This document shows positions 7,368 through 31,498 of a stretch of 64,000 bases of DNA, piece by piece. The notes under the pieces were generated by a model. It did no database searches, had not been told where the DNA came from, and saw only the letters and a list, made by a program, of their open reading frames with translations. Position 1 is the first letter of the stretch. Every line of letters starts with the position of its first letter. Position numbers and translations under genes: made by a program. Origin of the DNA: Chloroflexota bacterium (lineage in GTDB: Bacteria > Chloroflexota > Dehalococcoidia > Bin125). The stretch covers positions 50,826 to 114,825 of the forward strand of contig VXQZ01000033.1 of the NCBI GenBank assembly GCA_009838735.1. The letters are read 5' to 3'.

Positions 7368-7784
7368 TTATGCCTCGGAGACATTGTCCAACCGTTCAAT
7401 CTGCTGGCGGAGCCGACTCATCAGGAGTAACCAAAGTGCTGCCTCATCCCGAGGCACGATGGACCGAACGTCATGGGAGTAAATGTTTCGGACTCCAGTC
7501 GTCACGCCCAACATCAGATATCGAAGGGACGCGTGCTCATTTCGCTCCTTTGCGGTCTGACGTTCATTGAAGGCCAATGACGGCTTGTCATCAGCAAGAA
7601 CTGACTGCACCAGGCTCTGTCCGTTCAGATCGTCTCTACCGCTCCGATCCGCGATTTCCGCGAGCAGGTCTTGTGCCTCATGACGGATCGCATCACGGTG
7701 AAACCCGCTGGCAAACAGCGATCTGGCGTGGCTAGTGATGCTCATCTCCGCGAGCGTGAACGCCACATCCGAGTCGTCGGTCAT
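7368..7784 (-). CDS. HEPN-like (Rx4H) protein, TIGR02391/Abi-like; candidate RNase toxin
   Basis: 138 aa; ERNEHASLRYLMLGVTTGVRNIYSHD contains R-x4-H; lower GC than surroundings; start codon overlaps the stop of the upstream gene (TGATG). Confidence 0.6.
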   Translation of the reverse strand: MTDDSDVAFTLAEMSITSHARSLFASGFHRDAIRHEAQDLLAEIADRSGRDDLNGQSLVQSVLADDKPSLAFNERQTAKERNEHASLRYLMLGVTTGVRNIYSHDVRSIVPRDEAALWLLLMSRLRQQIERLDNVSEA

Positions 7785-8428
7785 CAGGCGACCAACCGCT
7801 GCGCAAATTCCCGCGCGGAATGTACTCCTGAGCCCCTCAACCGAACCGTTCTCTGGCTGCTCCGGGGCTTCCCCAATACGACCAGATCAGGACTCGTCTG
7901 TAAGGCCTTCGCGAAGTTCGGCTTGTCGTATTTTCGGTACTGTTCGACGACTTTGCGGATGTGGTCCATCTGGGTGTCAAGGCCTAGAGCGGTTCGCGCG
8001 CTTAGCACTAACAGCGCAATCTCGCGGGTGGCCTTGCCTTTCGCCGGGGACAGAAGATTGGGGCGCACTTGAACCTCGGGTTCAGCGTCTTCCAAGCCGA
8101 ACAGCATCTCTGCCTGTTCACCTTCGATCTCCAGATAGGAGGAAATCGCATCCATTCGCAGCTCAGGTGTCGAGTAAATGTCGTCCGCCTGTGATCCGTG
8201 CGGTTCTGCCGCGAGCGACGACTCACTCTCCTCGGTGCCGTCGGAGCGCACAGCATCTCCATTCCGGAGCATCGCTTCCAGGACAAGTCTGAATGCCGTT
8301 TCGCGCGTTTCCGGCGCGACTTCATCGCCGAGTTGCGATGCCGCTAGCCAAGCTTCCCGAACCAAGCCGGCCATCTTTAGGCCGGCGTTGGTCAGCGGCG
8401 CATCTGCGGTCTGAGCTTCTGAAACCAT
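7784..8428 (-). CDS. Hypothetical protein, partner of the HEPN-like gene (candidate antitoxin/sensor)
   Basis: 214 aa from the internal ATG (MVSEAQ) preceded by a GGGAGGG RBS; the longer ORF-track start lacks an RBS; no recognisable domain; acidic, helical. Confidence 0.55.
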   Translation of the reverse strand: MVSEAQTADAPLTNAGLKMAGLVREAWLAASQLGDEVAPETRETAFRLVLEAMLRNGDAVRSDGTEESESSLAAEPHGSQADDIYSTPELRMDAISSYLEIEGEQAEMLFGLEDAEPEVQVRPNLLSPAKGKATREIALLVLSARTALGLDTQMDHIRKVVEQYRKYDKPNFAKALQTSPDLVVLGKPRSSQRTVRLRGSGVHSAREFAQRLVA

Positions 8429-8454: not shown

Positions 8455-11400
8455 CTAGATAATAGCCAACTTCTCCAACACTGACGTCAGCACCGACTCC
8501 CAATCCGATTCTGCCAGCCGCCGAGCAGGCTGGTATCGCAGTTGCGTGGAGCCGATCTGCACCTGCCGAGGAACGGCGAGCCGTCGTTGCGACGAGCTGA
8601 AGTTCAGACCTGGCGCCAGGCGCAGGACCACGTTCTCTCCCTCGGACTGGATGGACTCGGCCCCGATCCTCGAAGCGAGCACCTTGAGCTTGACCGCGCC
8701 GAGCAGATTCTCGGTCGGCTTCGGCAGAACCCCGAATCGATCGTTCAGCTCGAGCCTGAAGTCTTCAATTTCATTTGGCGATTCGACGGCGGCCAGCCGC
8801 TGGTAGAGGGTCATACGCAGCCCGACATCGTCGACGTAGGACTCCGGAAGATAGCGAGGGATCGCGAGGTCGAGGTTGACCCTGGTTCCCTGACGGCGGC
8901 TGACGGGCCGCTGTCCAGATCGTTTCGCCTTCGATCGCTCGACTGCCTCGCCGAGCAGCTGAGTGAACAACGTGAAGCCGACCGCCCCGATGTGCCCCGA
9001 CTGTTGCGCGCCAAGCAGGTTGCCGGCGCCGCGGATTTCCAGGTCCTTGAGCGCGATCTGGAATCCGGCCCCGAGGTCGTCCGCCTCCATGATTGTGGCC
9101 AGTCGGCGCTGCGCCACTTCGGACAACGAACGGTACGGCTCGGTCATCAAGTAGGCGTACGCGCGCACGCTGGCGCGCCCGACACGCCCGCGGAGTTGGT
9201 ACATCTGCGCCAGTCCGAGCCGTTCGGCGCGGTCGATGATCATCGTGTTGACGCGAGGAATGTCGACGCCTGACTCGATGATCGTGGAGCAGACCAGAAC
9301 GTCCGCTTCGCCGTGGGTGAAGCGTTCCATGTGCTCGCGCAGGACATTGGCCGGCATCTGTCCGTGAGCGACCAGAAAGCTCGCCTCCGGCACCAGGCGG
9401 CTCAGCTCATTGGCCTCCCGGTCGATTGTTCTCACCTCGTTGTGCAGGAAGTAGACCTGACCGCCCCGATCGAGTTCCCGCAGGATCGCCTCGCGGATCA
9501 CGCTGTTGTCGCGTTCCATGACGTAGGTGCTGATCGGCAGTCGCTCTTCGGGCGGTGAAGCGATCGTCGACATGTCGCGGATCCCGGTCACCGCCTGATG
9601 CAGCGAGCGGGGAATCGGCGTCGCCGAGAGCGTGAGCACGTCAACCTCGCGGCGCAGCTTCTTCAGACGTTCCTTGTGTTCGACCCCGAAGCGTTGTTCC
9701 TCGTCGATCACCAGCAAACCAAGGCTCTTGAAGCCGATGTCCTTCTGCAGCAATCGGTGCGTGCCGATCGCGATATCAATCTTGCCGACCTTGAGTGCGT
9801 CCACTGTTTGTTGCTGTTCGGCCGATGTGCGTAGCCGGGACAGCAAGCCAATCTCGACCTGCATCGCAGCCAGGCGTTGGCGAAACGTCTCGTAGTGCTG
9901 TTGCGCCAACACCGTGGTCGGCACCAGCACGGCGACCTGATGACCGGACATGACCGCCTTGAATGCGGCGCGGATGGCGACTTCGGTTTTGCCGTAGCCG
10001 ACATCGCCGACGATCAGCCGATCCATCGGCCTGGACGCTTCCTGGTCTCGGCGGACTTCTTCAATCGCGCGATGCTGGTCGGTGGTCTCCACGTAGGGGA
10101 ACGACGCTTCCAGCTCGATCTGCCAGGGAGTATCCGGCTCGATCGGGATTCCCGGCTCGGTCTCCCGGGCGGCATGGAGCTCGAGCAAATCGTCGGCGAT
10201 CTCGGCGACCGCTCCACGGACCCGAGCCTTGGCCCGCTGCCACTGGCCGCCTCCGAGCCTGGTCAGCGTCGGCGGCGCATCGGAGGGGCCGACGTACGGC
10301 TGGACCCGGTCGAGCTTGTCGGTCGGCACCAGCAGTCGGTCGCCTTTGGCGAAACGCAGGTCTAGGTACTCGCCCTCGCGACCACCGATCCGTTCGCGAA
10401 CCACGCCATGGAAACGTCCAATGCCGCTATCGACGTGGACCACGTAGTCGCCTTGCTTGAGGCTTTCCAGCAGATGAGGATCCGAGGCAGGTACGGCACG
10501 GGTCTTGAGCGGTCGGCGCTGACGCTGACGCTCGAATCCGAATATCTCTGTGTCGCTGATCAACGTGACCAGACGCTCTCCGGTCTGCGGATCGTCAAGC
10601 CGCCAACCCTCCGCGATCGCCGCTCGCCCGATCGAGATCGCCAACCGATCAGGCCTGCTCCCAGGTTCCAGCTTCGACAGTGGCAACCCGAGGTCCGTCA
10701 TCAGTTCGGCCAGCCGCGCCTCTTGCAGGGAGACCACGACGTGGGCGCCGCGCCCTCTGGATTCGCGCAGCGATTCGAATAGCTGCGACAGTTTGCCCGC
10801 CAGTCGCGGAGTCGGTCGGAAGGGCAGACGCTGGTCGCCGCTGGCGAGACGGGACAGCGATCGGACCCGACGCGTCGACCGATACATCTCAGCTTCCAGC
10901 TCATCGCAGGTGAGCCACGGATGAGGGAGCCCGTGAGGGATGCGAGCCTCCCACTCCAGCTCACCGCGAGCGTCCTCGGCACGCTGATCACGCTCCTCGG
11001 CTCGAGCAGATACGTCGTGCGGCTCGTCGACGATGATCAATGCATCGTCGCCCAGATGGGCAAAGACCGTGCCGGATGCGAGAAACTGCGTCCAGAAGTC
11101 CGGCCGTGCCGTGGGACCGCCGTTTCGCAGGTGCTCCAGATCCAGCGTCAACAACGCGGCTTCCGCGGTCGGCTCCGCAGCGTCGTTCTCATCCCTGCGA
11201 TCCTGATCAACTGCCGTCAACAGTGCTTCGACCAGCGGTTCGCTGGCCGGCCCCGGACTCCACTCGCGAGCCGGCCGAACGGCGACCCGTTCGACAGCCT
11301 GCGTCGAGCGCTGGGTGAGCGGATCGAATCGGCGAATCGAGTCGATGTCATCGCCAAACAGCTCGACCCTGACCGGCTCGTCCTCGGCCGGCGGCCAGAA

Positions 11401-11964
11401 ATCGACAATCCCGCCTCGCACGGCAAACGTCGACGGTTCTACCACGAGTCGGCGTCGTTCGTAGCCGTTGGCGTCAAGCGATCGAACCAGGTCGGCCATT
11501 CGGATTGAGGATCCCAGACAGAGTTCGATAGGAGCAGAGACCGCGGCGACGGTGCGTTGCGCAGCGGCGTCAACGTCGGCGACGACGATCGGCGAGCCCT
11601 GGCGCAGCGATTCGATCGCGGAGAGCCGCGCTTCGACAGTGTCCGGCGCGGGCTTCTGCCGTTCATACGGGGCCGTCTCGCGGGCCGGAAACTGGAGCAG
11701 CCGGCTACGGTCGCGCTCCCCGAGCCAGAGCGGCAAGGCGTCGACCAGATCGGCGGCGTTGGTGGGTGTTGGCGTCAGGACGAGCACCGGACCCTGATGC
11801 CGGGCGGCCAGCACGGCGATGACGGCCGGCTTGGCGGCGTCGGGCAGGCCCAGCATCGGCTGGGCATCGAACGGCTCAATCGCCCCAAGCACGACGGGGC
11901 CCAGCCCGTCGAGCAGACCCGGCGGGGTGTCGTGCGGGATGTCGTGCGGGTCGGTGGCGCTCAC
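8455..11964 (-). CDS. mfd: Transcription-repair coupling factor
   Basis: 1169 aa; DEAD/DEAH helicase motifs (GDVGYGKTEVA, VIDEEQRFG), CarD-like and TRG domains; GTG start. Confidence 0.95.
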   Translation of the reverse strand: MSATDPHDIPHDTPPGLLDGLGPVVLGAIEPFDAQPMLGLPDAAKPAVIAVLAARHQGPVLVLTPTPTNAADLVDALPLWLGERDRSRLLQFPARETAPYERQKPAPDTVEARLSAIESLRQGSPIVVADVDAAAQRTVAAVSAPIELCLGSSIRMADLVRSLDANGYERRRLVVEPSTFAVRGGIVDFWPPAEDEPVRVELFGDDIDSIRRFDPLTQRSTQAVERVAVRPAREWSPGPASEPLVEALLTAVDQDRRDENDAAEPTAEAALLTLDLEHLRNGGPTARPDFWTQFLASGTVFAHLGDDALIIVDEPHDVSARAEERDQRAEDARGELEWEARIPHGLPHPWLTCDELEAEMYRSTRRVRSLSRLASGDQRLPFRPTPRLAGKLSQLFESLRESRGRGAHVVVSLQEARLAELMTDLGLPLSKLEPGSRPDRLAISIGRAAIAEGWRLDDPQTGERLVTLISDTEIFGFERQRQRRPLKTRAVPASDPHLLESLKQGDYVVHVDSGIGRFHGVVRERIGGREGEYLDLRFAKGDRLLVPTDKLDRVQPYVGPSDAPPTLTRLGGGQWQRAKARVRGAVAEIADDLLELHAARETEPGIPIEPDTPWQIELEASFPYVETTDQHRAIEEVRRDQEASRPMDRLIVGDVGYGKTEVAIRAAFKAVMSGHQVAVLVPTTVLAQQHYETFRQRLAAMQVEIGLLSRLRTSAEQQQTVDALKVGKIDIAIGTHRLLQKDIGFKSLGLLVIDEEQRFGVEHKERLKKLRREVDVLTLSATPIPRSLHQAVTGIRDMSTIASPPEERLPISTYVMERDNSVIREAILRELDRGGQVYFLHNEVRTIDREANELSRLVPEASFLVAHGQMPANVLREHMERFTHGEADVLVCSTIIESGVDIPRVNTMIIDRAERLGLAQMYQLRGRVGRASVRAYAYLMTEPYRSLSEVAQRRLATIMEADDLGAGFQIALKDLEIRGAGNLLGAQQSGHIGAVGFTLFTQLLGEAVERSKAKRSGQRPVSRRQGTRVNLDLAIPRYLPESYVDDVGLRMTLYQRLAAVESPNEIEDFRLELNDRFGVLPKPTENLLGAVKLKVLASRIGAESIQSEGENVVLRLAPGLNFSSSQRRLAVPRQVQIGSTQLRYQPARRLAESDWESVLTSVLEKLAII

Positions 11965-12036
11965 GCGCGCAGACTCCGTCCGCTGACGTCTGGACTCAGC
12001 TTATGGGAGCCTGATCCAACGAACGTTATGCCAGGT

Positions 12037-12690
12037 TCAACTCTGGCCGTCCGGCGCCGAACGGTTGTACAGGTTCATCGCCGACTCGACGCCATGCTCC
12101 AACAGGTGGACGACCGCCTCGGCAGCGCGCATTTCGGCATCGTGCAACAGCCGACGCTCCGCCGGAGTCGGGTCACTGAGCAACCAGTCCGCGACATCAT
12201 CGGGATGATGCGACGGTTTGCCGTCGACCATCGGACGGCCAACGCCGATCCGAATCCGAGGAAAGTCAAGCTCACCGATCGTGGCGCGAATCGAACGCAT
12301 GCCACGCTGACCGGCGTCGGACCCTGAGGGCCTGATCCGGATCCGTCCGGGTTCCAGATCAAGTTCATCGACGAGCAGGATCAGGTCCGACGGCTCGGCG
12401 CGGTACTTGTCGAGCAGCGATTGCACAGCTTTGCCCGACTCGTTCATGAACGTTCGCGGAACGACGACGGCGACCGGTCCATGAGCCGTCTGAGCCTGAG
12501 CGACGCGGAAGCGTGCCTCACGCTGAAGCTGCGGCAGTCCGAGCCCACGTCGGATGAGCTCAGCCGAGCGTGCGCCTGCGTTATGTCGGTTCTGCGAGTA
12601 GTCCGCTCCAGGATTTCCCAGACCAACGATCAGCCGGGCACCCTGAAGCGGCTTGAGTCCGCGCCTTCGAAGTTTGGGCAGTCTGACCAT
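12037..12690 (-). CDS. pth: Peptidyl-tRNA hydrolase
   Basis: LIVGLGNPGADYSQNRHNAG signature; N-terminal extension of about 18 aa, so the true start may lie downstream. Confidence 0.85.
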   Translation of the reverse strand: MVRLPKLRRRGLKPLQGARLIVGLGNPGADYSQNRHNAGARSAELIRRGLGLPQLQREARFRVAQAQTAHGPVAVVVPRTFMNESGKAVQSLLDKYRAEPSDLILLVDELDLEPGRIRIRPSGSDAGQRGMRSIRATIGELDFPRIRIGVGRPMVDGKPSHHPDDVADWLLSDPTPAERRLLHDAEMRAAEAVVHLLEHGVESAMNLYNRSAPDGQS

Positions 12691-12783
12691 GCGCCTATTC
12701 TTTCATCGGATGCCGACTTGGCGGTTGCGTCAAATCGGGCTAGATCACGCCTAACCGGCAAGTTGGGAGTTTGCGTCGTGCCG

Positions 12784-13068
12784 ATGCCCTCAGAGGCAGA
12801 AGTTAGCCGCGTGCTACTTCTGTTGCTGCACCGGAGCGAATCGGGAATGCGAACTGGAGATGCCATCGTGGCTGTTTCAGTAGCGTTTCCCCAGATCACG
12901 GAGAGCGATCTCAACGAGACTGTCCCATCCGGCGAAAACAGATGGCAGAACCGCGTGCGCTGGGCGCGAAACGATCTTGTGAAGGCCGGCCTCCTTGATC
13001 CATCGCAACACGGATTCTGGCTCTTGACCAAGAAGGGTCACGAGGACGCAAGGCGAATCTTCCCATAG
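12784..13068 (+). CDS. Mrr_N (restriction-system Mrr N-terminal) winged-helix domain protein, standalone
   Basis: 95 aa; SGENRWQNRVRWARNDLVKAGLLDPSQHGFWLLTKKG aligns with the E. coli Mrr N-terminal domain (recalled); GGGAG upstream; a GTG at 12778 is an alternative start. Confidence 0.7.
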   Translation: MPSEAEVSRVLLLLLHRSESGMRTGDAIVAVSVAFPQITESDLNETVPSGENRWQNRVRWARNDLVKAGLLDPSQHGFWLLTKKGHEDARRIFP

Positions 13069-13189
13069 CCCTCTTTGAAGCGTCTACGGATTTCTCAAAG
13101 TAGCTCAGCTCAATGAGCTGTCGTGGGCACCGCCCGGCTGCAGAGCAATGCTCAAAGTGTCCGCGCTCGTAGCACTGAGGGACTTCAGC

Positions 13190-14773
13190 TCACTCTCCGA
13201 CGTACTTCTCGCCCAGGGCGGTTTCCCAGCGCAGGTAGTGCTGCATGTCGGCGTAGCCGCGCTGCGGACCGAAGGTCAGGATGTCGTTGGGCGGCGCGAG
13301 CACTCCCGTCAGGCCGTACTCGATCGGGAGCCCAGCCGCGTGCCAGTTGCCCATGCCGCCTGCGATCGCGGAGACGTTCGGGCGCCCCAATTCGAGCAGC
13401 GTCTGGGCTGCCAACAACGATTGCCGGCCGGACTCGCAGACGATAATCAACGGCGTCGACTCCTCCGGGGCCAACGATTGGATATCCCGCTCCAGCCAGC
13501 CTCTGGGCGCCCATCGAGCTCCCGGCGGATGCGCCCGAGCGAACTCCTCGCTCGTACCGACGTGCAGGATCACCGCGTCGGGCTGATCGAACGTCTCTGA
13601 AGCCTCAATGGTGATCACGGTCTGGCGTGCCTGCGACAACAGACCAGGCTCAGTTGTCCTCATGCCTGATTCCAATCGCCGGCCGGCCGAAGTCCACGCC
13701 TCTATCCCTCCATCGAGCGCATAGATGTGTCGATGGCCCATCTGCCGGTACCACGACGCCGTCAGCGCGGCGCGCGCCACGCCGTCGCAGGCGAACACGA
13801 TCGGCGCATGGTGAACAACCGCAACGTCATCGCTGCGCTGCACTGCCTGTCCACCGGGGAACCAGCGGAAGCCGGGGATGTGTCCGGCCTCGTGCTCGGC
13901 GTCGGTACGGACGTCGATGAGGTACACACTCTCCGACTGGCTCCGCCCGCGAAGCTCGTTCACTTGCTCGACGCCAATGAGTTGAACGCCATCCTCTTCA
14001 GCGCAGCGCCGCGCATACTGTTCGGCCGCAGCCTGACCCTCGGCGGAAACGGCGGGCAGCGCATCGCGGTCGGCGCCAAACTCAAGCTCGTGACCGGCCA
14101 GCATCCAGCCCGCGGTGCCGTTCTTCAGACCAATGACCTCGCGCTTCAAGGACATCCGCTGCAACACCCTGGTGCCAATGATGCTGCGCGTCCGTCCGGC
14201 GCAGTTGACCACCACCGTGGCGTCGTCCGGCGCGTCGGCAAGCACATCGGTGATCCGGAAGGCAAGTTCGCCTCCGGGCATGCTGCGCCCGCCGGGGATG
14301 CAGGAACGCCGGTACTCCTCCGGCGTCCGCGTGTCGAGGATTACCAGCGGGTCGCCGCGTTCTATCCGCGCATGCAGGTCGTCCGCGTCGATCTCCGGAA
14401 CGCGGTGCACGACCTCGACCCGCTCACCAAAGTCCTTGCTGGGCACATTGACGCCCCACTCGGTCGGCAGGTCGAGAAACGCCCAACGGTTGGTCCCGCC
14501 GGAAAGCGTCGAAACATCGGAGTAGCCCATGCGCTCAACCGTCTCGGCGGCAAAATGAACGCGCCGCTCATCCTCGTCGCACAGCACAATCGGCGTATCG
14601 CGATGTGGCACAGCCTCGGGAAGCTCGAACTCAAGCATCCGCCGAGGAATCAGGCTGGCCCCAACGATATGCGACGCGTTGTACTCAGGAGGATCACGAA
14701 CGTCTATCAAAGCAATCGGCGCATCGTCGGAAAGCCGGTCGTGGAGGTCGTCGGGTGTGATTGGTGGTGGCAT
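13190..14773 (-). CDS. Multi-domain rhodanese-like sulfurtransferase (four tandem rhodanese domains)
   Basis: 527 aa; repeated rhodanese modules with active-site Cys loops (CDEDERR, CAGRTRS, CDGVARA, CESGRQS). Confidence 0.85.
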   Translation of the reverse strand: MPPPITPDDLHDRLSDDAPIALIDVRDPPEYNASHIVGASLIPRRMLEFELPEAVPHRDTPIVLCDEDERRVHFAAETVERMGYSDVSTLSGGTNRWAFLDLPTEWGVNVPSKDFGERVEVVHRVPEIDADDLHARIERGDPLVILDTRTPEEYRRSCIPGGRSMPGGELAFRITDVLADAPDDATVVVNCAGRTRSIIGTRVLQRMSLKREVIGLKNGTAGWMLAGHELEFGADRDALPAVSAEGQAAAEQYARRCAEEDGVQLIGVEQVNELRGRSQSESVYLIDVRTDAEHEAGHIPGFRWFPGGQAVQRSDDVAVVHHAPIVFACDGVARAALTASWYRQMGHRHIYALDGGIEAWTSAGRRLESGMRTTEPGLLSQARQTVITIEASETFDQPDAVILHVGTSEEFARAHPPGARWAPRGWLERDIQSLAPEESTPLIIVCESGRQSLLAAQTLLELGRPNVSAIAGGMGNWHAAGLPIEYGLTGVLAPPNDILTFGPQRGYADMQHYLRWETALGEKYVGE

Positions 14774-14877
14774 GGCTGAAGTCTAGGTCCGAACTCATCG
14801 ACTGACTTCAGTTCGTCCCCCTCCGCCAATTCGCCGCGAGGAGACCCGCGCGTCGACCACGGACTTGCAGTTGCCGT

Positions 14878-14910
14878 CAACCCCCTCTCCCTCGGGAAGA
14901 GGGGACCGGA
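14878..14910. repeat. GC-rich palindromic repeat, family B (CCCTCTCCC-N3/4-GGGAGAGGGGACCGGA)
   Basis: ccccctctccctcgggaagaggggaccgga; related copies at 17298-17395 and 44166-44241. Confidence 0.7.
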
Positions 14911-14941
14911 ATGAGGATTGCGGATAGGTCTTGGGACGCCC

Positions 14942-16354
14942 CTATACCGCCGCCAACCGCGACGCCTTCTGCAGCGCATTCGCCGCGCGCTCGAAGCTGG
15001 GGAACGTGGCGATCCCCTCCTCCTGCAGCCTCATCCTCGCAGTCAGCGCGGCCTCCTCAACGTGGCTCGGATGCAGCGCCGCCAGGAACGGTTTGCCCGA
15101 CTCGGCCATGAACTTCTTCAGCGAGCCGATCAGGCGGTCGAACTCCTCCGGCTTGTCCTGCCAACGACGGGCCATGAATGTGGCCGAGAGTTCCATCCCG
15201 ACCGCGTCGATGTTCTCGTCTGCGTTGAGGATGTCGAAGATCGTGTCCAGGTGCTTGGGGTCCTGGCCGATCGTCCCCGCGGCGTCTAGCGGGTTACGGT
15301 AGCTGCCGCCGATGATGTTGAAGAACTCGGAGAGCTGGGCATAGCTCTCGTCTGAGAGCGTCGGCACCTTCCAGCCCGCCTTCTCAAAGGCGTCGGTAAG
15401 CACGACCGACTGTCCCCCGGTCATGGCGATCAGGCCGAGCCGATTGCCCTGGGTGCGCTTGGTCAGCAACGTGGCCTTGACCACATCGATCATCTCGTCG
15501 AGGTTATGCACCGCGACCGCGCCGACCTGCTTAATCATCGCCTCCCAGATCGCCTGGTCGCTGGCCAGCGAGGCCGTGTGCGAGCGAATCGCGCGTCCGC
15601 CGCCCTCGGTCTGGCCGCCCTTCCAGATGATCACCGGCTTCTTCGCGGCGACCTCGCGCAACGTCTTGAACAGGCGCTGCCCATCGCGGGCACCCTCGAT
15701 GTACATGCCGATCACTTCGGTCTGCGGGTCGTCGGCGAGGTACTCGAGGTAGTCGGCGGCCTCGAGAATGATCCCGTTGCCAAAGCTGACCAGGGTCGAG
15801 CAGTACAGGCCGTGCGCGGCGCCGGTCAGGGAGAAGTTCATCCCGTGGGTACCCGATTGCGAGACAAAGCCGATGTTGCCCTGCACGCCGGCCGGTTGGT
15901 CGCGGTTGAAGCGCACGCCGAGACCGGGCACGTGCAGCCCCATGCAGTTGGGTCCGATCAGGGCCAGTCCCGAGGGGTCGGCAATCTCAAAGATCTTGTT
16001 CTGCAGCTCGACGCCGATGTCTTCGCCGGTCTCGGCGAATCCGGAGGTGAACAGCGTGACGCCGCCGACGTTGGCCTCAACACAACCCTGGACGATGAAC
16101 GGCGCGACTTGTCGCGGCACTGCACAGACGGCGAAGTCGACCTGATCCGGAATGTCGGTCAGCGATTTGTAGTTGGGGATGCCCAGCTCTTCGATCCCGG
16201 GAATCTCGTTCTCGTCGACTTGCACGCTGTAAACGGGGCCGTCGAACTCTTTCATTGAGCGCAGCCAGTTGTAGCCACTCGCCTTCTTGTCGCCAATGAC
16301 GGCGACCACCTTGGGCGCAAGTGCACGGGTCAGGCGTTCACGTGTGACGGCCAT
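14942..16354 (-). CDS. Acetyl-CoA synthetase (ADP-forming), alpha subunit (CoA-binding/succinyl-CoA-synthetase-like)
   Basis: 470 aa; N-terminal CoA-binding Rossmann (VVAVIGDKKASG) plus ligase-CoA domains. Confidence 0.85.
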   Translation of the reverse strand: MAVTRERLTRALAPKVVAVIGDKKASGYNWLRSMKEFDGPVYSVQVDENEIPGIEELGIPNYKSLTDIPDQVDFAVCAVPRQVAPFIVQGCVEANVGGVTLFTSGFAETGEDIGVELQNKIFEIADPSGLALIGPNCMGLHVPGLGVRFNRDQPAGVQGNIGFVSQSGTHGMNFSLTGAAHGLYCSTLVSFGNGIILEAADYLEYLADDPQTEVIGMYIEGARDGQRLFKTLREVAAKKPVIIWKGGQTEGGGRAIRSHTASLASDQAIWEAMIKQVGAVAVHNLDEMIDVVKATLLTKRTQGNRLGLIAMTGGQSVVLTDAFEKAGWKVPTLSDESYAQLSEFFNIIGGSYRNPLDAAGTIGQDPKHLDTIFDILNADENIDAVGMELSATFMARRWQDKPEEFDRLIGSLKKFMAESGKPFLAALHPSHVEEAALTARMRLQEEGIATFPSFERAANALQKASRLAAV

Positions 16355-21248: not shown

Positions 21249-21965
21249 ATGCAGATCTCACCCCGACGACGACAACGCGCCCTCAGAGTCCACGAGCTGC
21301 GACAGAGAGGACGTTCGCTACGCAACATCGGCAAACAACTCGACATCTCTCACTCCACGGTGCTCGCCGATCTCAAGCTGATCGAAACGCGCTGGAGCGA
21401 GCTCACGCGGCAATCCACCGACGACTTCCAGCTCGAACAACTCGCCCTGATGCAGCGGCGCCTGCGCATGCTCCTCCGGCGCGACCTGCTCAAGGAGTTC
21501 GGGCGGCTCAGTCCCATCGACTTCGTCCGCATCCACGAGGCCCACAACCAGGAGCTCGCCATCCTCCTCCGCGAGACGCGGCGACTCGCCGCTGAGCTCC
21601 GCGAACGAGCCGATCTCCGTGATCTCGATCCCGCCGAGCTCCCTCCGGAACTCGACTTCCCCGAGGAAGAACTGGTCTCGGCTCTCAAATCGACAAGACC
21701 GGCGAAATCGACCGAGTCGGCCAGAGCCGCAAGGGCAGGAGAGCCGACCACCACTCACCACGGCCTGCCAAAATCTTCCAAACCCAACCACTTCAACCAC
21801 CCAATTCCCCGCAAAACACTGGAAATCGCGTCATCGACCGCGCCAGAAAAAATCTCCAACCAACCGCCCGCGGACCTCACCCCCGAACAGCTCAACCAAC
21901 AAGCCGAGACCTTCCTCCGCAACTACAACAGACAGGAGCTCCAACCCACCGCCGCCGGCGGCTAG
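21249..21965 (+). CDS. HTH DNA-binding protein with long Pro/Ser/Thr-rich disordered C-terminal tail
   Basis: N-terminal LRVHELRQRGRSLRNIGKQLDISHSTVLADLKLI (sigma-70 region-4 or IS-type HTH-like); AGGAAA RBS; AT-rich promoter-like region at 21118-21248. Confidence 0.6.
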   Translation: MQISPRRRQRALRVHELRQRGRSLRNIGKQLDISHSTVLADLKLIETRWSELTRQSTDDFQLEQLALMQRRLRMLLRRDLLKEFGRLSPIDFVRIHEAHNQELAILLRETRRLAAELRERADLRDLDPAELPPELDFPEEELVSALKSTRPAKSTESARAARAGEPTTTHHGLPKSSKPNHFNHPIPRKTLEIASSTAPEKISNQPPADLTPEQLNQQAETFLRNYNRQELQPTAAGG

Positions 21966-22016
21966 GTGCGGGACCTACCGGCCGCGCAACATGCGCTAAC
22001 CCTCTCTATCTTCTTC

Positions 22017-22058
22017 GCTCCCCCTCGCAGGGGGAGCTGCCGAAGGCTGAGGGGTCCC
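22017..22058. repeat. Single copy of the family-A GC-rich palindromic repeat unit
   Basis: gctccccctcgcagggggagctgccgaaggctgaggggtccc, near-identical to the units at 16378-16502. Confidence 0.75.
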
Positions 22059-22212
22059 GTTCCCGCCGAACGAACGCGTCGTTGTACCCGCCTTCCCTCT
22101 CCCGTCCACTCTTGTTCCGAGAGCGTGTTTGCTCCCTCGTAGCCTGCCCCCCACCCGACGCGGTGATACGATGCGCAACAGGGCACACAGAGCCGAGTCG
22201 AGAGGTCCCACG

Positions 22213-30361: not shown

Positions 30362-31498
30362 TTAGACCGCGACGGGCGAGCCGAACTTCTCGATCAGCTC
30401 TTCGGCCTGGCTGACCATGGTCTCGACAACCTCGGTTGCGGGGCGGATGGCCTTGATCAGACCAGCGCCGTTGCCAGCGGGGCCGCCGATCAGTTCCTCG
30501 ATGTGCGCTTCGCGGGCGCCGCGCAGCGCTTCACCGACGAGCAGTCCCTGAAGCGGCATGGGGAGTGTGGGCGGAGCTTCGGGTCGTTCCCAGGCCTCGG
30601 TCCAGGCGTTGTACATGTGGCGCATGGTCTTGCCCGAGTACATCCGGCCGATGCGGGTGTCCTCGTCAACCGCGGCCACGAGCTTGTCCCATTGGACCTT
30701 GCGGGTCCATTCGTCGGTCTCGCCGCGTTCTTCGGAGTCCTGGTAGGCCTCCCAGGTGCCGAGGAAGGCGGTGCCGCACCAGATCGCCTCGGCGCCCAGC
30801 GCGAGCGCGGCCAGCAGGCCGCGACCGTCCATGATTCCGCCGGCGGCAATGGTCTTGGTCGGAGCGATTGCATCGGCCACCTGGGGCACGAGCGCAAGGG
30901 TGCCGATCCGGCCGGTGTGGCCTCCGGCCTCGGTGCCCTGGGCAACGACGGCGTCGACCTTGGCGGCCGCCACACGGCGTGCATTGCGGGTGTTGCCGAC
31001 CAGACCGATGACTTTCATGCCCTGCGCGTGGGCGTCGTCAACCATCCAGCCGGGGCTGCCCAGGCCGGAGGCGAAGACGGGTACGTTCTCGTCGAGGATC
31101 ACCTCGACCTGCTTGCGGAAGTAATCCTGCGTCAACGGCGGCCGATCGAGCTGTTGGGACGGCTCGGGGATCTCGAACTCCTGCTTAAGCTGATCGACGA
31201 AGTGGTGATGCTCGGCCGAGATCTCGAGCTCCAGATCCTCGCGGTTGCCGGAGTCGGCGATCGAAGAGGGCAGGAGCAGATCAACGCCGAATGGCTTGTC
31301 GGTCAGCGAGCGGACCTTGGCGATCATGCCGTGCAGCTCATCCGGCGTGTAACCGGTGGCGCCGACCACGCCGAGCCCACCGGCCTCGGATACGGCAGCG
31401 GCCAGCGTCGGCCCGGCGGCGCCACCCATCCCGGCGAGCATCACCGGATACTCGATGCCCAGCATGTCGCAGAGTTCAGTTTTCAGAGGGGAAGCCAT
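30362..31498 (-). CDS. Nitronate monooxygenase (2-nitropropane dioxygenase, NMO family, FMN-dependent)
   Basis: 378 aa from the internal ATG (MASPLKTELCDMLGIEYPVMLAGMGG); characteristic NMO glycine-rich FMN-binding stretches. Confidence 0.85.
   Translation of the reverse strand: MASPLKTELCDMLGIEYPVMLAGMGGAAGPTLAAAVSEAGGLGVVGATGYTPDELHGMIAKVRSLTDKPFGVDLLLPSSIADSGNREDLELEISAEHHHFVDQLKQEFEIPEPSQQLDRPPLTQDYFRKQVEVILDENVPVFASGLGSPGWMVDDAHAQGMKVIGLVGNTRNARRVAAAKVDAVVAQGTEAGGHTGRIGTLALVPQVADAIAPTKTIAAGGIMDGRGLLAALALGAEAIWCGTAFLGTWEAYQDSEERGETDEWTRKVQWDKLVAAVDEDTRIGRMYSGKTMRHMYNAWTEAWERPEAPPTLPMPLQGLLVGEALRGAREAHIEELIGGPAGNGAGLIKAIRPATEVVETMVSQAEELIEKFGSPVAV

What the first reader, a model, noticed from the sequence alone, without database searches (positions are those of the whole stretch)
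12784..13068. Orphan Mrr_N winged-helix protein without a nuclease domain
A 95-aa ORF aligns by eye, essentially end-to-end, with the N-terminal DNA-modification-sensing winged-helix domain of E. coli Mrr (conserved NRxxWARxxLxKAGLL ... G.W.LT..G core). No PD-(D/E)xK domain follows, and the gene is convergent with an unrelated rhodanese gene. Standalone reader domains of restriction systems could act as decoys, regulators or remnants. Start-codon choice (ATG 12784 or GTG 12778) is uncertain.
Basis: partly seen in the sequence, partly recalled or inferred. Interest (0 to 1): 0.5.

Follow-up and report, generated by a model that had tools for sequence, protein, structure and literature searches.

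The report
Nuclease-less Mrr reader-domain gene
A small, well-conserved gene encodes only the DNA-binding winged-helix domain of an Mrr-type restriction enzyme; in sister genomes the matching nuclease gene lies beside it, here it is absent, and such domain-only proteins are common but uncharacterised.

Summary
Window 12778/12784-13068 (+) encodes a 96/94-aa protein that matches Pfam Mrr_N (E 3.9e-17, 62.6 bits against a cut-off of 29.5). It aligns with residues 1-89 of E. coli Mrr and folds as a confident winged helix (pLDDT 95.5). No nuclease domain follows. Only 121 bp separate its stop from a convergent, intact rhodanese gene, and tblastn finds no nuclease remnant.

It is a functional gene, not a fragment. 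An 82-84%-identical orthologue sits in the same pth/rhodanese slot of another Dehalococcoidia genome, with dN/dS about 0.07, like its housekeeping neighbours.

In sister genomes the same slot holds a roughly 400-420-aa Mrr_N plus FokI/HindIII-like PD-(D/E)xK nuclease. That nuclease occurs alone, followed by the small gene, or preceded by another Mrr_N-only gene. The window gene is therefore a reader-domain-only paralogue whose nuclease partner is missing from the slot.

Domain-only Mrr_N proteins are common: 36 of the 150 closest cluster representatives. Most lie next to restriction genes.

My best reading is a non-catalytic DNA binder that modulates restriction, retained here as an orphan. 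That mechanism is inferred, not shown. I rate it a new member of a known kind, of moderate-to-low interest.

The parts
12778..13068 (+). CDS of the Mrr_N-only winged-helix protein. It is 96 aa from GTG 12778, or 94 aa from the alternative ATG 12784, with the TAG stop at 13066-13068.
   Evidence: Pfam Mrr_N E 3.9e-17. AF2 pLDDT 95.5. Orthologue at 82-84% identity with dN/dS 0.06-0.07. hhalign to EcoKMrr residues 1-89.
12765..12769 (+). Likely ribosome-binding site GGGAG, 8 nt upstream of GTG 12778.
   Evidence: Read from the sequence. GGAG is conserved at the same distance from the ATG start of the orthologue.
12940..12984 (+). Codons 55-69 (RWQNRVRWARNDLVK), the predicted recognition helix of the winged helix and the most conserved part of the protein.
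   Evidence: AF2 helix H55-69. 13 of 19 residues in aa 51-69 are invariant among the four small orthologues, against 23 of 77 elsewhere. This is the same motif as in EcoKMrr.
12691..12777 (.). 87-bp divergent intergenic region shared with pth. It must hold the gene's promoter and is too short to hide a second gene.
   Evidence: No sigma-70-like site and no inverted repeat were found. In sister genomes a 400-420-aa nuclease gene is located here.
13069..13189 (.). 121-bp convergent spacer between the gene's stop and the rhodanese stop. It contains no nuclease remnant and no clear terminator.
   Evidence: tblastn found no hits. Fold z-score is -0.95. The terminator scan found none.
12037..12690 (-). 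Left boundary of the slot: pth (peptidyl-tRNA hydrolase). It is a flanking housekeeping gene, not part of the element.
   Evidence: Pfam Pept_tRNA_hydro E 2.6e-50. It is syntenic in L001, L005, L098 and L100.
13190..14773 (-). Right boundary of the slot: a 527-aa protein with four rhodanese domains, convergent with the gene. It is a flanking gene, not part of the element.
   Evidence: Pfam Rhodanese E 5.2e-60, four stretches. It is syntenic in L001, L005 and L098.

Best explanation
Shown:
- This is a real, expressed-type gene for a roughly 96-aa protein that consists only of an Mrr_N winged-helix domain plus a short C-terminal helix ending in a clade-specific IFP motif.
- It is a domain-only paralogue of a Dehalococcoidia-specific Mrr-like type IV restriction nuclease. 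That nuclease has an Mrr_N domain, a disordered linker, a FokI/HindIII-like PD-(D/E)xK domain and a helical C-terminus.
- In sister genomes the nuclease gene occupies the same slot next to pth, alone or in tandem with a small Mrr_N-only gene.

Inferred:
- The protein binds DNA through the conserved recognition helix (WxNRVRWARxxL), in the same way as the N-domain of the nuclease, but cannot cut.
- It most likely works as a non-catalytic modulator of restriction. It could occupy the sites that the cognate nuclease would read, or join and disturb the nuclease's oligomer, and so damp self-damage. Alternatively it could repress the cassette.
- It has been retained as an orphan after the nuclease was lost, or the nuclease is encoded elsewhere in the genome.
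For: Identity:
- Pfam Mrr_N 62.6 bits; hhalign to EcoKMrr residues 1-89.
- AF2 pLDDT 95.5, with the topology H-H-H-recognition helix-wing-H.

A functional gene:
- The orthologue in a 3.6-Mb Dehalococcoidia chromosome has the same length and the same stop position.
- dN 0.11, dS about 1.6, dN/dS 0.06-0.07, against 0.10 for pth and 0.086 for rhodanese.
- The recognition helix is the most conserved segment.

Slot history:
- L005: pth | 423-aa long gene | 96-aa small gene | rhodanese.
- L017: long gene, then a 94-aa small gene.
- L098: pth | 157-aa Mrr_N-only gene | 421-aa long gene | rhodanese.
- L100: pth | 402-aa long gene only.

The long protein is a nuclease:
- The TD...x13...DAK motif is conserved.
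- Weak Pfam Mrr_cat and FokI_C hits.

Relationship to the long family:
- The small IFP-ending proteins form a clade with 62% bootstrap support, placed next to the N-domains of the long family (that placement itself has only 5-23% bootstrap support) and apart from the distant standalone forms.

Restriction link for the class:
- Of about 10 independent domain-only contexts examined, 5 lie next to R-M genes that carry a DNA methyltransferase and 3 lie next to the long nuclease.

Accessory character:
- GC 57.7% and GC3 64.9%, against window GC 64.2% and flank GC3 of 69-77%.
Against: - No experiment exists for any domain-only Mrr_N protein, and even DNA binding by the Mrr N-domain is only presumed (PMC3874153).
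- No nuclease, methyltransferase or other restriction gene lies in this 64-kb window, so a modulator would have nothing nearby to modulate.
- Strong purifying selection without the partner fits an autonomous role at least as well.
- The long-plus-small tandem is lineage-specific. None of 4 other full-length long-family loci in metagenomes has a small gene beside it.
- Tree support is modest (58-62%) on a 99-column alignment.
- No operator-like palindrome is present upstream.
- The direction of events (loss of the nuclease here, or gain elsewhere) is not resolved.
Confidence: 0.5

Rival explanations
1. An autonomous transcription factor or nucleoid-associated protein. A winged-helix protein of Mrr_N ancestry has been co-opted to regulate host genes and now has no role in restriction.
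Against: No PadR, MarR or other regulator HMM matches; only Mrr_N does. The upstream region has no palindromic operator. Relatives are overwhelmingly fused to, or adjacent to, restriction functions. The small gene diverges about three times faster than its flanks between more distant genomes (dN 0.50 against 0.15-0.16), and its GC content is atypical. Both features are more typical of accessory or defence genes than of a core regulator.
Confidence: 0.25
2. A trans-acting recognition subunit of a split restriction enzyme. The reader-only protein recruits or activates a separately encoded nuclease located elsewhere in the genome, much as reading and cleavage are divided between the two subunits of heterodimeric R.BspD6I.
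For: The cleavage domain of the long family is FokI/BspD6I-like, a kind that works through subunit association. In L009 a 126-aa ORF with a possible D...QDK motif directly follows a small Mrr_N gene. Domain-only Mrr_N genes flank type IIG/IIL/I enzymes.
Against: There is no candidate partner in the window. The L009 ORF has no Pfam support. A word-index search found no long-family member on the contig of the closest relative or in this MAG, although that search is not exhaustive. Where the full-length nuclease is present it already carries its own Mrr_N domain.
Confidence: 0.15
3. A decaying remnant: the 5' fragment of a disrupted full-length mrr-like gene, with no function.
For: The full-length gene occupies the same slot in sister genomes. 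Frameshifted Mrr_N genes do exist elsewhere, for example L096.
Against: dN/dS is 0.06-0.07 at a dS of about 1.6, with ORF length and stop position conserved. A conserved C-terminal IFP motif is absent from the long proteins. The small gene coexists with an intact long gene in L005 and L017, so it is a separate paralogue and not a truncation product. No nuclease-coding remnant is found, and only 87 bp and 121 bp of flanking spacer are available.
Confidence: 0.03
4. An anti-restriction decoy carried by a mobile element or prophage. It would mimic or compete with host Mrr-type enzymes.
For: GC content is lower than that of the flanks. Decoy logic is plausible for a reader-only domain.
Against: tblastn finds no match in 50,697 phage genomes, and there is no PHROG family. 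Plasmid hits are only partial matches, most of them under genes annotated as restriction endonucleases. There are no integrase, transposase or repeat boundaries, and the position between pth and rhodanese is stable across genomes.
Confidence: 0.03

Closest known systems
EcoKMrr (E. coli K-12 type IV methyl-directed restriction enzyme, 304 aa)
   Same: The N-terminal winged-helix domain is homologous. hhalign aligns residues 1-89 at probability 95.8%, with the shared motif NRxxWAxxxLxxAGL...G.W.LT..G. Both belong to Pfam family PF14338.
   Different: EcoKMrr carries a C-terminal Mrr_cat PD-QxK nuclease domain and is regulated by a tetramer-dimer switch (PMC12707154). The window protein ends after the winged helix, has no catalytic domain, and shares only about 28% identity.
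Dehalococcoidia 'long' family: Mrr_N plus a FokI/HindIII-like PD-(D/E)xK nuclease, about 400-420 aa (for example L005 4699-5970, P0187)
   Same: This is the closest group of fused relatives to the window protein's domain (42-47% identity). It occupies the same pth-adjacent slot in sister genomes and is encoded in tandem with orthologues of the window gene in L005 and L017.
   Different: It has a linker, a nuclease core with a conserved TD...DAK motif and a helical C-terminal domain. The window gene has none of these, and it has its own conserved C-terminal IFP motif.
McrB-S, the truncated product of mcrB that modulates McrBC
   Same: It is a partial-length product related to a type IV restriction subunit that interferes with the full-length enzyme (PMC3874153, citing Panne et al. 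1998). This is the precedent for the proposed modulator role.
   Different: McrB-S lacks the DNA-binding domain, keeps the GTPase part, and arises from an internal start within the same gene. Here the product keeps only the DNA-binding domain and is a separate gene. The families are not homologous.
Controller (C) proteins of restriction-modification systems
   Same: They are small helix-turn-helix proteins encoded beside restriction genes. Distant domain-only Mrr_N genes sit in similar positions, for example directly upstream of an MmeI-family gene in L014.
   Different: C proteins are Xre-type HTH dimers that bind C-box palindromes (from my own knowledge). The window protein is a winged helix, has no R-M neighbour and has no upstream palindrome.
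PadR/MarR/RosR winged-helix transcription regulators
   Different: There is no sequence-family membership (only Mrr_N matches), and no evidence for a dimerisation module or an operator.

Membership tests
Pfam PF14338 Mrr_N (Mrr N-terminal winged-helix domain) | HMM score above the curated gathering threshold, over most of the profile | tested here: met
   62.6 bits against a threshold of 29.5, E 3.9e-17, profile positions 9-83 of 87.
Pfam PF14338 Mrr_N (Mrr N-terminal winged-helix domain) | Homology to the N-domain of the founding member, EcoKMrr, including the NRxxWA...L...G.W.LT..G core | tested here: met
   hhalign probability 95.8%, E 7e-9, EcoKMrr residues 1-89. BLASTP 32% identity over 50 aa, E 3e-7.
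Pfam PF14338 Mrr_N (Mrr N-terminal winged-helix domain) | Winged helix-turn-helix fold | tested here: met
Type IV restriction endonuclease of the Mrr type | A PD-(D/E/Q)xK (Mrr_cat or related) nuclease domain in the same polypeptide | tested here: not met
   The protein ends at aa 96. There is no Mrr_cat hit and no remnant downstream or anywhere in the window.
Type IV restriction endonuclease of the Mrr type | Modification-dependent binding or cleavage of DNA | not testable with these tools
   This needs EMSA or cleavage assays. [quoted passage not shown]
Dehalococcoidia long Mrr_N plus FokI-like nuclease family | Full architecture: Mrr_N, linker, nuclease core with the TD...DAK motif, helical C-terminal domain | tested here: not met
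   Only the first domain is present. The long-family profile matches the window only at 12778-13065.
Dehalococcoidia long Mrr_N plus FokI-like nuclease family | The N-domain groups phylogenetically with the N-domains of this family | tested here: inconclusive
   In the NJ tree the small clade (62% bootstrap) is placed next to the long-family N-domains and apart from the distant standalone forms, but the deeper nodes have only 5-23% support.
R-M controller (C) proteins | Encoded within or directly beside an R-M operon | tested here: not met
   No R-M, methyltransferase or nuclease gene was detected among window ORFs of 200 aa or more. The neighbours are pth and rhodanese.
R-M controller (C) proteins | Palindromic operator (C-box) upstream of its own gene | tested here: not met
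   No inverted repeat in 12650-12800.
PadR/MarR-type transcription regulators | Sequence-family HMM match | tested here: not met
   Only Mrr_N is reported at E <= 1 in Pfam, and NCBIfam gives no hit.
PadR/MarR-type transcription regulators | Structural similarity of the winged-helix core | tested here: met

The most novel reading that the evidence does not exclude
Reader-domain-only paralogues of type IV restriction enzymes may form a general, unrecognised class of restriction modulators. They would act like an antidote or immunity factor: they bind the same modified or structural DNA targets as the cognate nuclease, or poison its oligomer, and so set the threshold for self-cleavage. They could persist as orphans after the nuclease is lost, in the way orphan antitoxins or orphan methyltransferases do.

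Three observations here are compatible with this reading but do not demonstrate it:
- The pth slot is variable (long only, long plus small, small plus long, small only).
- The small gene is far more diverged between L005 and L017 than the adjacent nuclease gene (dN 0.53 against 0.08).
- Other domain-only Mrr_N genes recur next to type I, IIG and IIL R-M enzymes.
Probability: 0.15. Interest if true: 0.65.

Novelty: new member of a known kind. Interest (0 to 1): 0.35.

Why it matters
Type IV (modification-dependent) restriction enzymes are dangerous to their own host, and how cells restrain them is poorly understood. For Mrr the only known control is an oligomeric switch.

Domain-only Mrr_N proteins are numerous, about a quarter of the closest cluster representatives here. 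The paper library searched holds no study of them. If they bind the same DNA as their nuclease relatives, they would be a simple, testable layer of control. They would also be ready-made probes for whatever feature of DNA the Mrr_N domain actually reads, which has never been shown biochemically.

This particular locus offers a natural series for such tests: nuclease only, nuclease plus reader, and reader only, all in one chromosomal slot. Taken alone, however, the window gene is one more uncharacterised member of a catalogued domain family, in an otherwise ordinary housekeeping region.

Tried and rejected
1. **Nuclease remnant.** tblastn with the C-terminal parts of five long-family proteins gave only noise (E >= 0.25) in a small database made of window 12000-15000 plus the L001 orthologous region, and E >= 0.47 in the whole window. 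tblastn of all 150 representatives gave two spurious low-complexity hits, at 21873-22079 and 30404-30724.
2. **Solved-structure homologue.** phmmer against PDB sequences found nothing significant (best E 0.12, JetB). Foldseek against the PDB found only generic winged helices, none at E <= 1e-3. The AFDB50 library was not available.
3. **Phage origin or decoy.** tblastn against phage genomes and a PHROGs scan found nothing.
4. **Regulatory signals.** I found no sigma-70-like promoter, no intrinsic terminator, no inverted repeat and no significant RNA structure in the flanking spacers.
5. **Conserved partner next to long-family genes in metagenomes.** Of 80 loci fetched, only 4 carry full-length long-family genes, and none has an adjacent small Mrr_N gene.
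6. **A shared '71-aa' neighbour in L009 and L013.** The two proteins are unrelated.
7. **The L009 126-aa ORF as a split nuclease.** It has no Pfam support.
8. **Searches that failed or were uninformative.** The search for related loci failed with the broad alignments because they had no conserved stretch. The first literature query was swamped by unrelated 'MRRN' terms.
9. **A long-family gene elsewhere in the same genomes.** The word-index search lists none on the 3.64-Mb contig or in this MAG. The search is not exhaustive, so this remains open.

Full report
**1. What is in the sequence**

The plus-strand ORF ending at TAG 13066-13068 can start at ATG 12784 (94 aa) or GTG 12778 (96 aa). It lies between two minus-strand genes.
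- Upstream is pth (12037-12690; Pept_tRNA_hydro, E 2.6e-50), transcribed divergently, with 87 bp between the two starts.
- Downstream is a 527-aa protein with four rhodanese domains (13190-14773; E 5.2e-60), transcribed convergently, with 121 bp between the two stops.
- mfd lies beyond pth (8455-11964).

The window corresponds to a Chloroflexi MAG (GCA_009845885.1, contig VXYU01000055.1). Its public annotation calls an over-long 161-aa product that overlaps pth.

**2. Test of the observation**

- Pfam reports a single family, Mrr_N (PF14338): E 3.9e-17, 62.6 bits against a gathering score of 29.5, covering aa 12-87 of the protein and profile positions 9-83 of 87.
- NCBIfam has no model for it.
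- The PADLOC type IV enzyme model matches only through its N-terminal positions 25-92 of 317.
- I fetched E. coli K-12 mrr and compared it directly. BLASTP gives 32% identity over 50 residues (E 3e-7). A profile of the orthologues aligns to EcoKMrr residues 1-89 at 95.8% probability.
- AlphaFold2 with 38 homologues gives pLDDT 95.5 and a winged-helix topology with a recognition helix at residues 55-69, a two-strand wing and a C-terminal helix.

**3. No nuclease, and not a fragment**

The spacers on either side (87 bp and 121 bp) cannot hold a nuclease domain. tblastn with the nuclease parts of five related full-length proteins finds nothing in or around the locus, or anywhere in the window.

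An orthologue (P0002, 96 aa, 82-84% identical) lies in the same pth/rhodanese slot of a 3.64-Mb Dehalococcoidia chromosome (L001/L004).
- The DNA alignment shows mostly third-position changes inside the ORF and loss of similarity outside it.
- The stop is at the same position.
- The orthologue has ATG aligned to window GTG 12778, with GGAG 8 nt upstream in both genomes. Because the family N-terminus is M-x-M/L/I-P, I favour GTG 12778 as the start.
- dN/dS (NG86) is 0.06-0.07 (dN 0.11, dS about 1.6). The neighbours give 0.10 (pth) and 0.086 (rhodanese).

This is a functional gene.

**4. The slot in sister genomes**

Related Dehalococcoidia genomes have the same framework: mfd, usually a coiled-coil gene, pth, then a variable slot, then rhodanese and/or a CoA ligase. 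The slot content varies:

| Locus | Slot content |
|---|---|
| Window, L001 | Small gene only |
| L005 | 423-aa 'long' gene, then 30 nt, then a 96-aa small gene. A complete GmrSD gene lies beyond the rhodanese |
| L017 | Long gene (C-terminal part 84-88% identical to that of L005), then a 94-aa small gene |
| L098 | A different 157-aa Mrr_N-only gene, then a 421-aa long gene |
| L100 | Long gene only (402 aa), rhodanese absent |
| L099 | Long gene in an unrelated context |

The long protein is a restriction nuclease.
- It has an N-terminal Mrr_N domain.
- The motif IGGSGxTDVLA...x13...DAK is invariant or nearly so.
- It gives weak Mrr_cat, FokI_C and HindIII Pfam hits.
- Its AF2 model (pLDDT 80.5) has a disordered linker at 97-119 and an alpha/beta core.

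**5. Relationship of the small and long genes**

The small proteins from the window, L001, L005 and L017 all end in IFP, which the long proteins do not. In a neighbour-joining tree they form one clade (62% bootstrap) placed next to the N-domains of the long family (a placement with only 5-23% bootstrap support) and apart from the more distant standalone forms. Because the small gene coexists with an intact long gene in L005 and L017, it is a separate paralogue and not a truncation product.

It also evolves differently from its neighbours.
- Between the window and L005 the flanks are 78-79% identical, but the small protein is only 49% identical.
- Between L005 and L017 the long gene has dN 0.08 and dS 0.6, while the adjacent small gene has dN 0.53 with saturated dS. 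This suggests old, exchanged alleles.
- Within the clade the recognition-helix region is the best conserved part: 13 of 19 positions in aa 51-69 are invariant, against 23 of 77 elsewhere.
- The gene's GC content (57.7%; GC3 64.9%) is below the window mean (64.2%) and below the flanks (GC3 69-77%). This fits an accessory gene.

**6. How unusual is a domain-only Mrr_N protein?**

It is not unusual. An exhaustive phmmer search of 1.84 billion cluster representatives gives 1008 hits at E <= 1e-3. The 150 best break down as follows:

| Architecture | Count |
|---|---|
| 130 aa or less with a single Mrr_N domain (33 start with M) | 36 |
| N-terminal domain plus a short extension | 28 |
| N-terminal domain plus a larger C-terminal part | 61 |
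| Two to six tandem Mrr_N copies | 20 |
| Internal or C-terminal domain | 4 |
| No hit to the profile built here | 1 |

Of the 114 longer relatives, only 30 have Mrr_cat. The others carry GmrSD_N, HNH, AAA_5 or no recognisable domain. Mrr_N is therefore a promiscuous module.

I examined the genomic contexts of independent domain-only genes.
- Five lie beside R-M genes that carry a DNA methyltransferase. These are an N6_N4_Mtase pair (L008), an 841-892-aa MTase (L009-L012), a type I/IIG-like M plus S pair (L013), an MmeI-family enzyme directly downstream (L014-L016) and an 829-aa N6_Mtase directly upstream (L102).
- Three lie beside the long nuclease (L005, L017, L098).
- Two are in housekeeping contexts: this window together with L001, and L103 between argJ and argB.

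No match exists in 50,697 phage genomes or in PHROGs. Plasmid matches are partial, and most lie under genes annotated as restriction endonucleases.

**7. The rest of the window**

PADLOC and Pfam scans of all 75 ORFs of 200 aa or more show housekeeping and metabolic genes. There is no R-M gene, nuclease or methyltransferase. The flanking spacers contain no promoter-like, terminator-like or palindromic element.

**8. Literature**

Reviews describe EcoKMrr as an N-terminal winged-helix domain ('presumed DNA binding', from a model plus mutants) fused to a PD-QxK nuclease. [quoted passage not shown] Winged-helix fusion endonucleases of the DpnI type read 6mA (PMC11037411). That is a different winged-helix family, so it is a lead only. 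I found no paper in the library on domain-only Mrr_N proteins. McrB-S, a truncated product that interferes with McrBC, is a precedent for partial-length modulators of type IV enzymes (PMC3874153).

**9. Interpretation**

Shown:
- This is a conserved, selected gene that encodes only an Mrr_N winged helix.
- It is paralogous to the N-domain of a slot-resident FokI-like restriction nuclease that is absent here.
- The class is common and mostly linked to restriction genes.

Inferred:
- It binds DNA through the conserved recognition helix.
- It acts as a non-catalytic modulator, by competing for sites, poisoning the oligomer or repressing the cassette.
- It is retained here as an orphan.

The main rival is a co-opted autonomous DNA-binding regulator. 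That reading fits the housekeeping context and the strong constraint without a partner. A split-enzyme recognition subunit remains possible. The decaying-remnant and mobile-decoy readings are disfavoured.

**10. Verdict**

The gene is a new member of a catalogued but functionally unstudied architecture. Interest is moderate to low (0.35). It would rise if reader-only paralogues prove to be a general control layer for type IV restriction.

Noticed in passing
window 7368-7784 (-) and 7787-8428 (-): A 138-aa Hypoth_Ymh protein (PF09509, E 3.8e-17) and an adjacent 214-aa protein with no Pfam hit lie directly downstream of mfd. Both have low GC (56.1% and 59.4%, against 64.2% for the window) and are conserved in L001. 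They could be a small accessory or defence-like pair.
   Followed up: partly
L005 7927-9747 (-): A complete GmrSD type IV enzyme (GmrSD_N E 1e-34, GmrSD_C E 1e-23) lies just beyond the rhodanese gene in the sister genome. There the pth-rhodanese region behaves as a small defence islet.
   Followed up: partly
L008 5001-5336; L009 5001-5288; L013 5001-5360; L014 1823-2098; L102 3637-3921: Distant domain-only Mrr_N genes (91-119 aa) lie beside R-M enzymes that carry a DNA methyltransferase (N6_N4_Mtase, type I/IIG-like M plus S, MmeI family, N6_Mtase) in 5 of 6 independent contexts. This position resembles that of a controller protein, and I found no description of it in the literature.
   Followed up: partly
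L009 5445-5825 (+): A 126-aa ORF directly after a 95-aa Mrr_N gene contains 'YDVVW...FVFEVQDKG', a possible D...QxK nuclease motif. This would suggest a split Mrr, but there is no Pfam support.
   Followed up: partly
L103 1616-2014 (+): A 132-aa Mrr_N-only gene sits between argJ and argB in an arginine-biosynthesis gene run. It is a second example of an orphan in a housekeeping context.
   Followed up: no
L098 4562-5035 (+): A 157-aa Mrr_N-only protein upstream of the long nuclease has a degenerate recognition helix (WRNTVQAVRYQL instead of WxNRVRWARxxL) and a unique 60-aa tail. A run of GACAG repeats lies in its upstream region.
   Followed up: no
L096 3968-4288 (+) and 4209-5156 (+): A 106-aa Mrr_N ORF is overlapped out of frame by a 315-aa ORF. 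This looks like a frameshifted full-length gene, a genuine example of the 'disrupted mrr' case that the window gene is not.
   Followed up: no
between mfd and pth: window 11965-12036, against L001 6243-7253, L005 2878-3954, L098 2728-3780 and L100 2629-3687: Sister genomes carry a 336-358-aa coiled-coil protein gene, with no confident Pfam family, between mfd and pth. The window lacks it entirely.
   Followed up: no
window 21249-21965 (+): A 238-aa ORF has an N-terminal HTH-like segment (RSLRNIGKQLDISHSTVLADLK) and a proline-rich tail. It is unannotated, and its weak tblastn hit to a Mrr-like protein was low-complexity noise.
   Followed up: partly
window 12583-13068 (+): The public annotation of this MAG calls a 161-aa product (P0001) from an upstream start that overlaps pth on the opposite strand. 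Orthologue alignment shows that the real start is at 12778 or 12784.
   Followed up: yes
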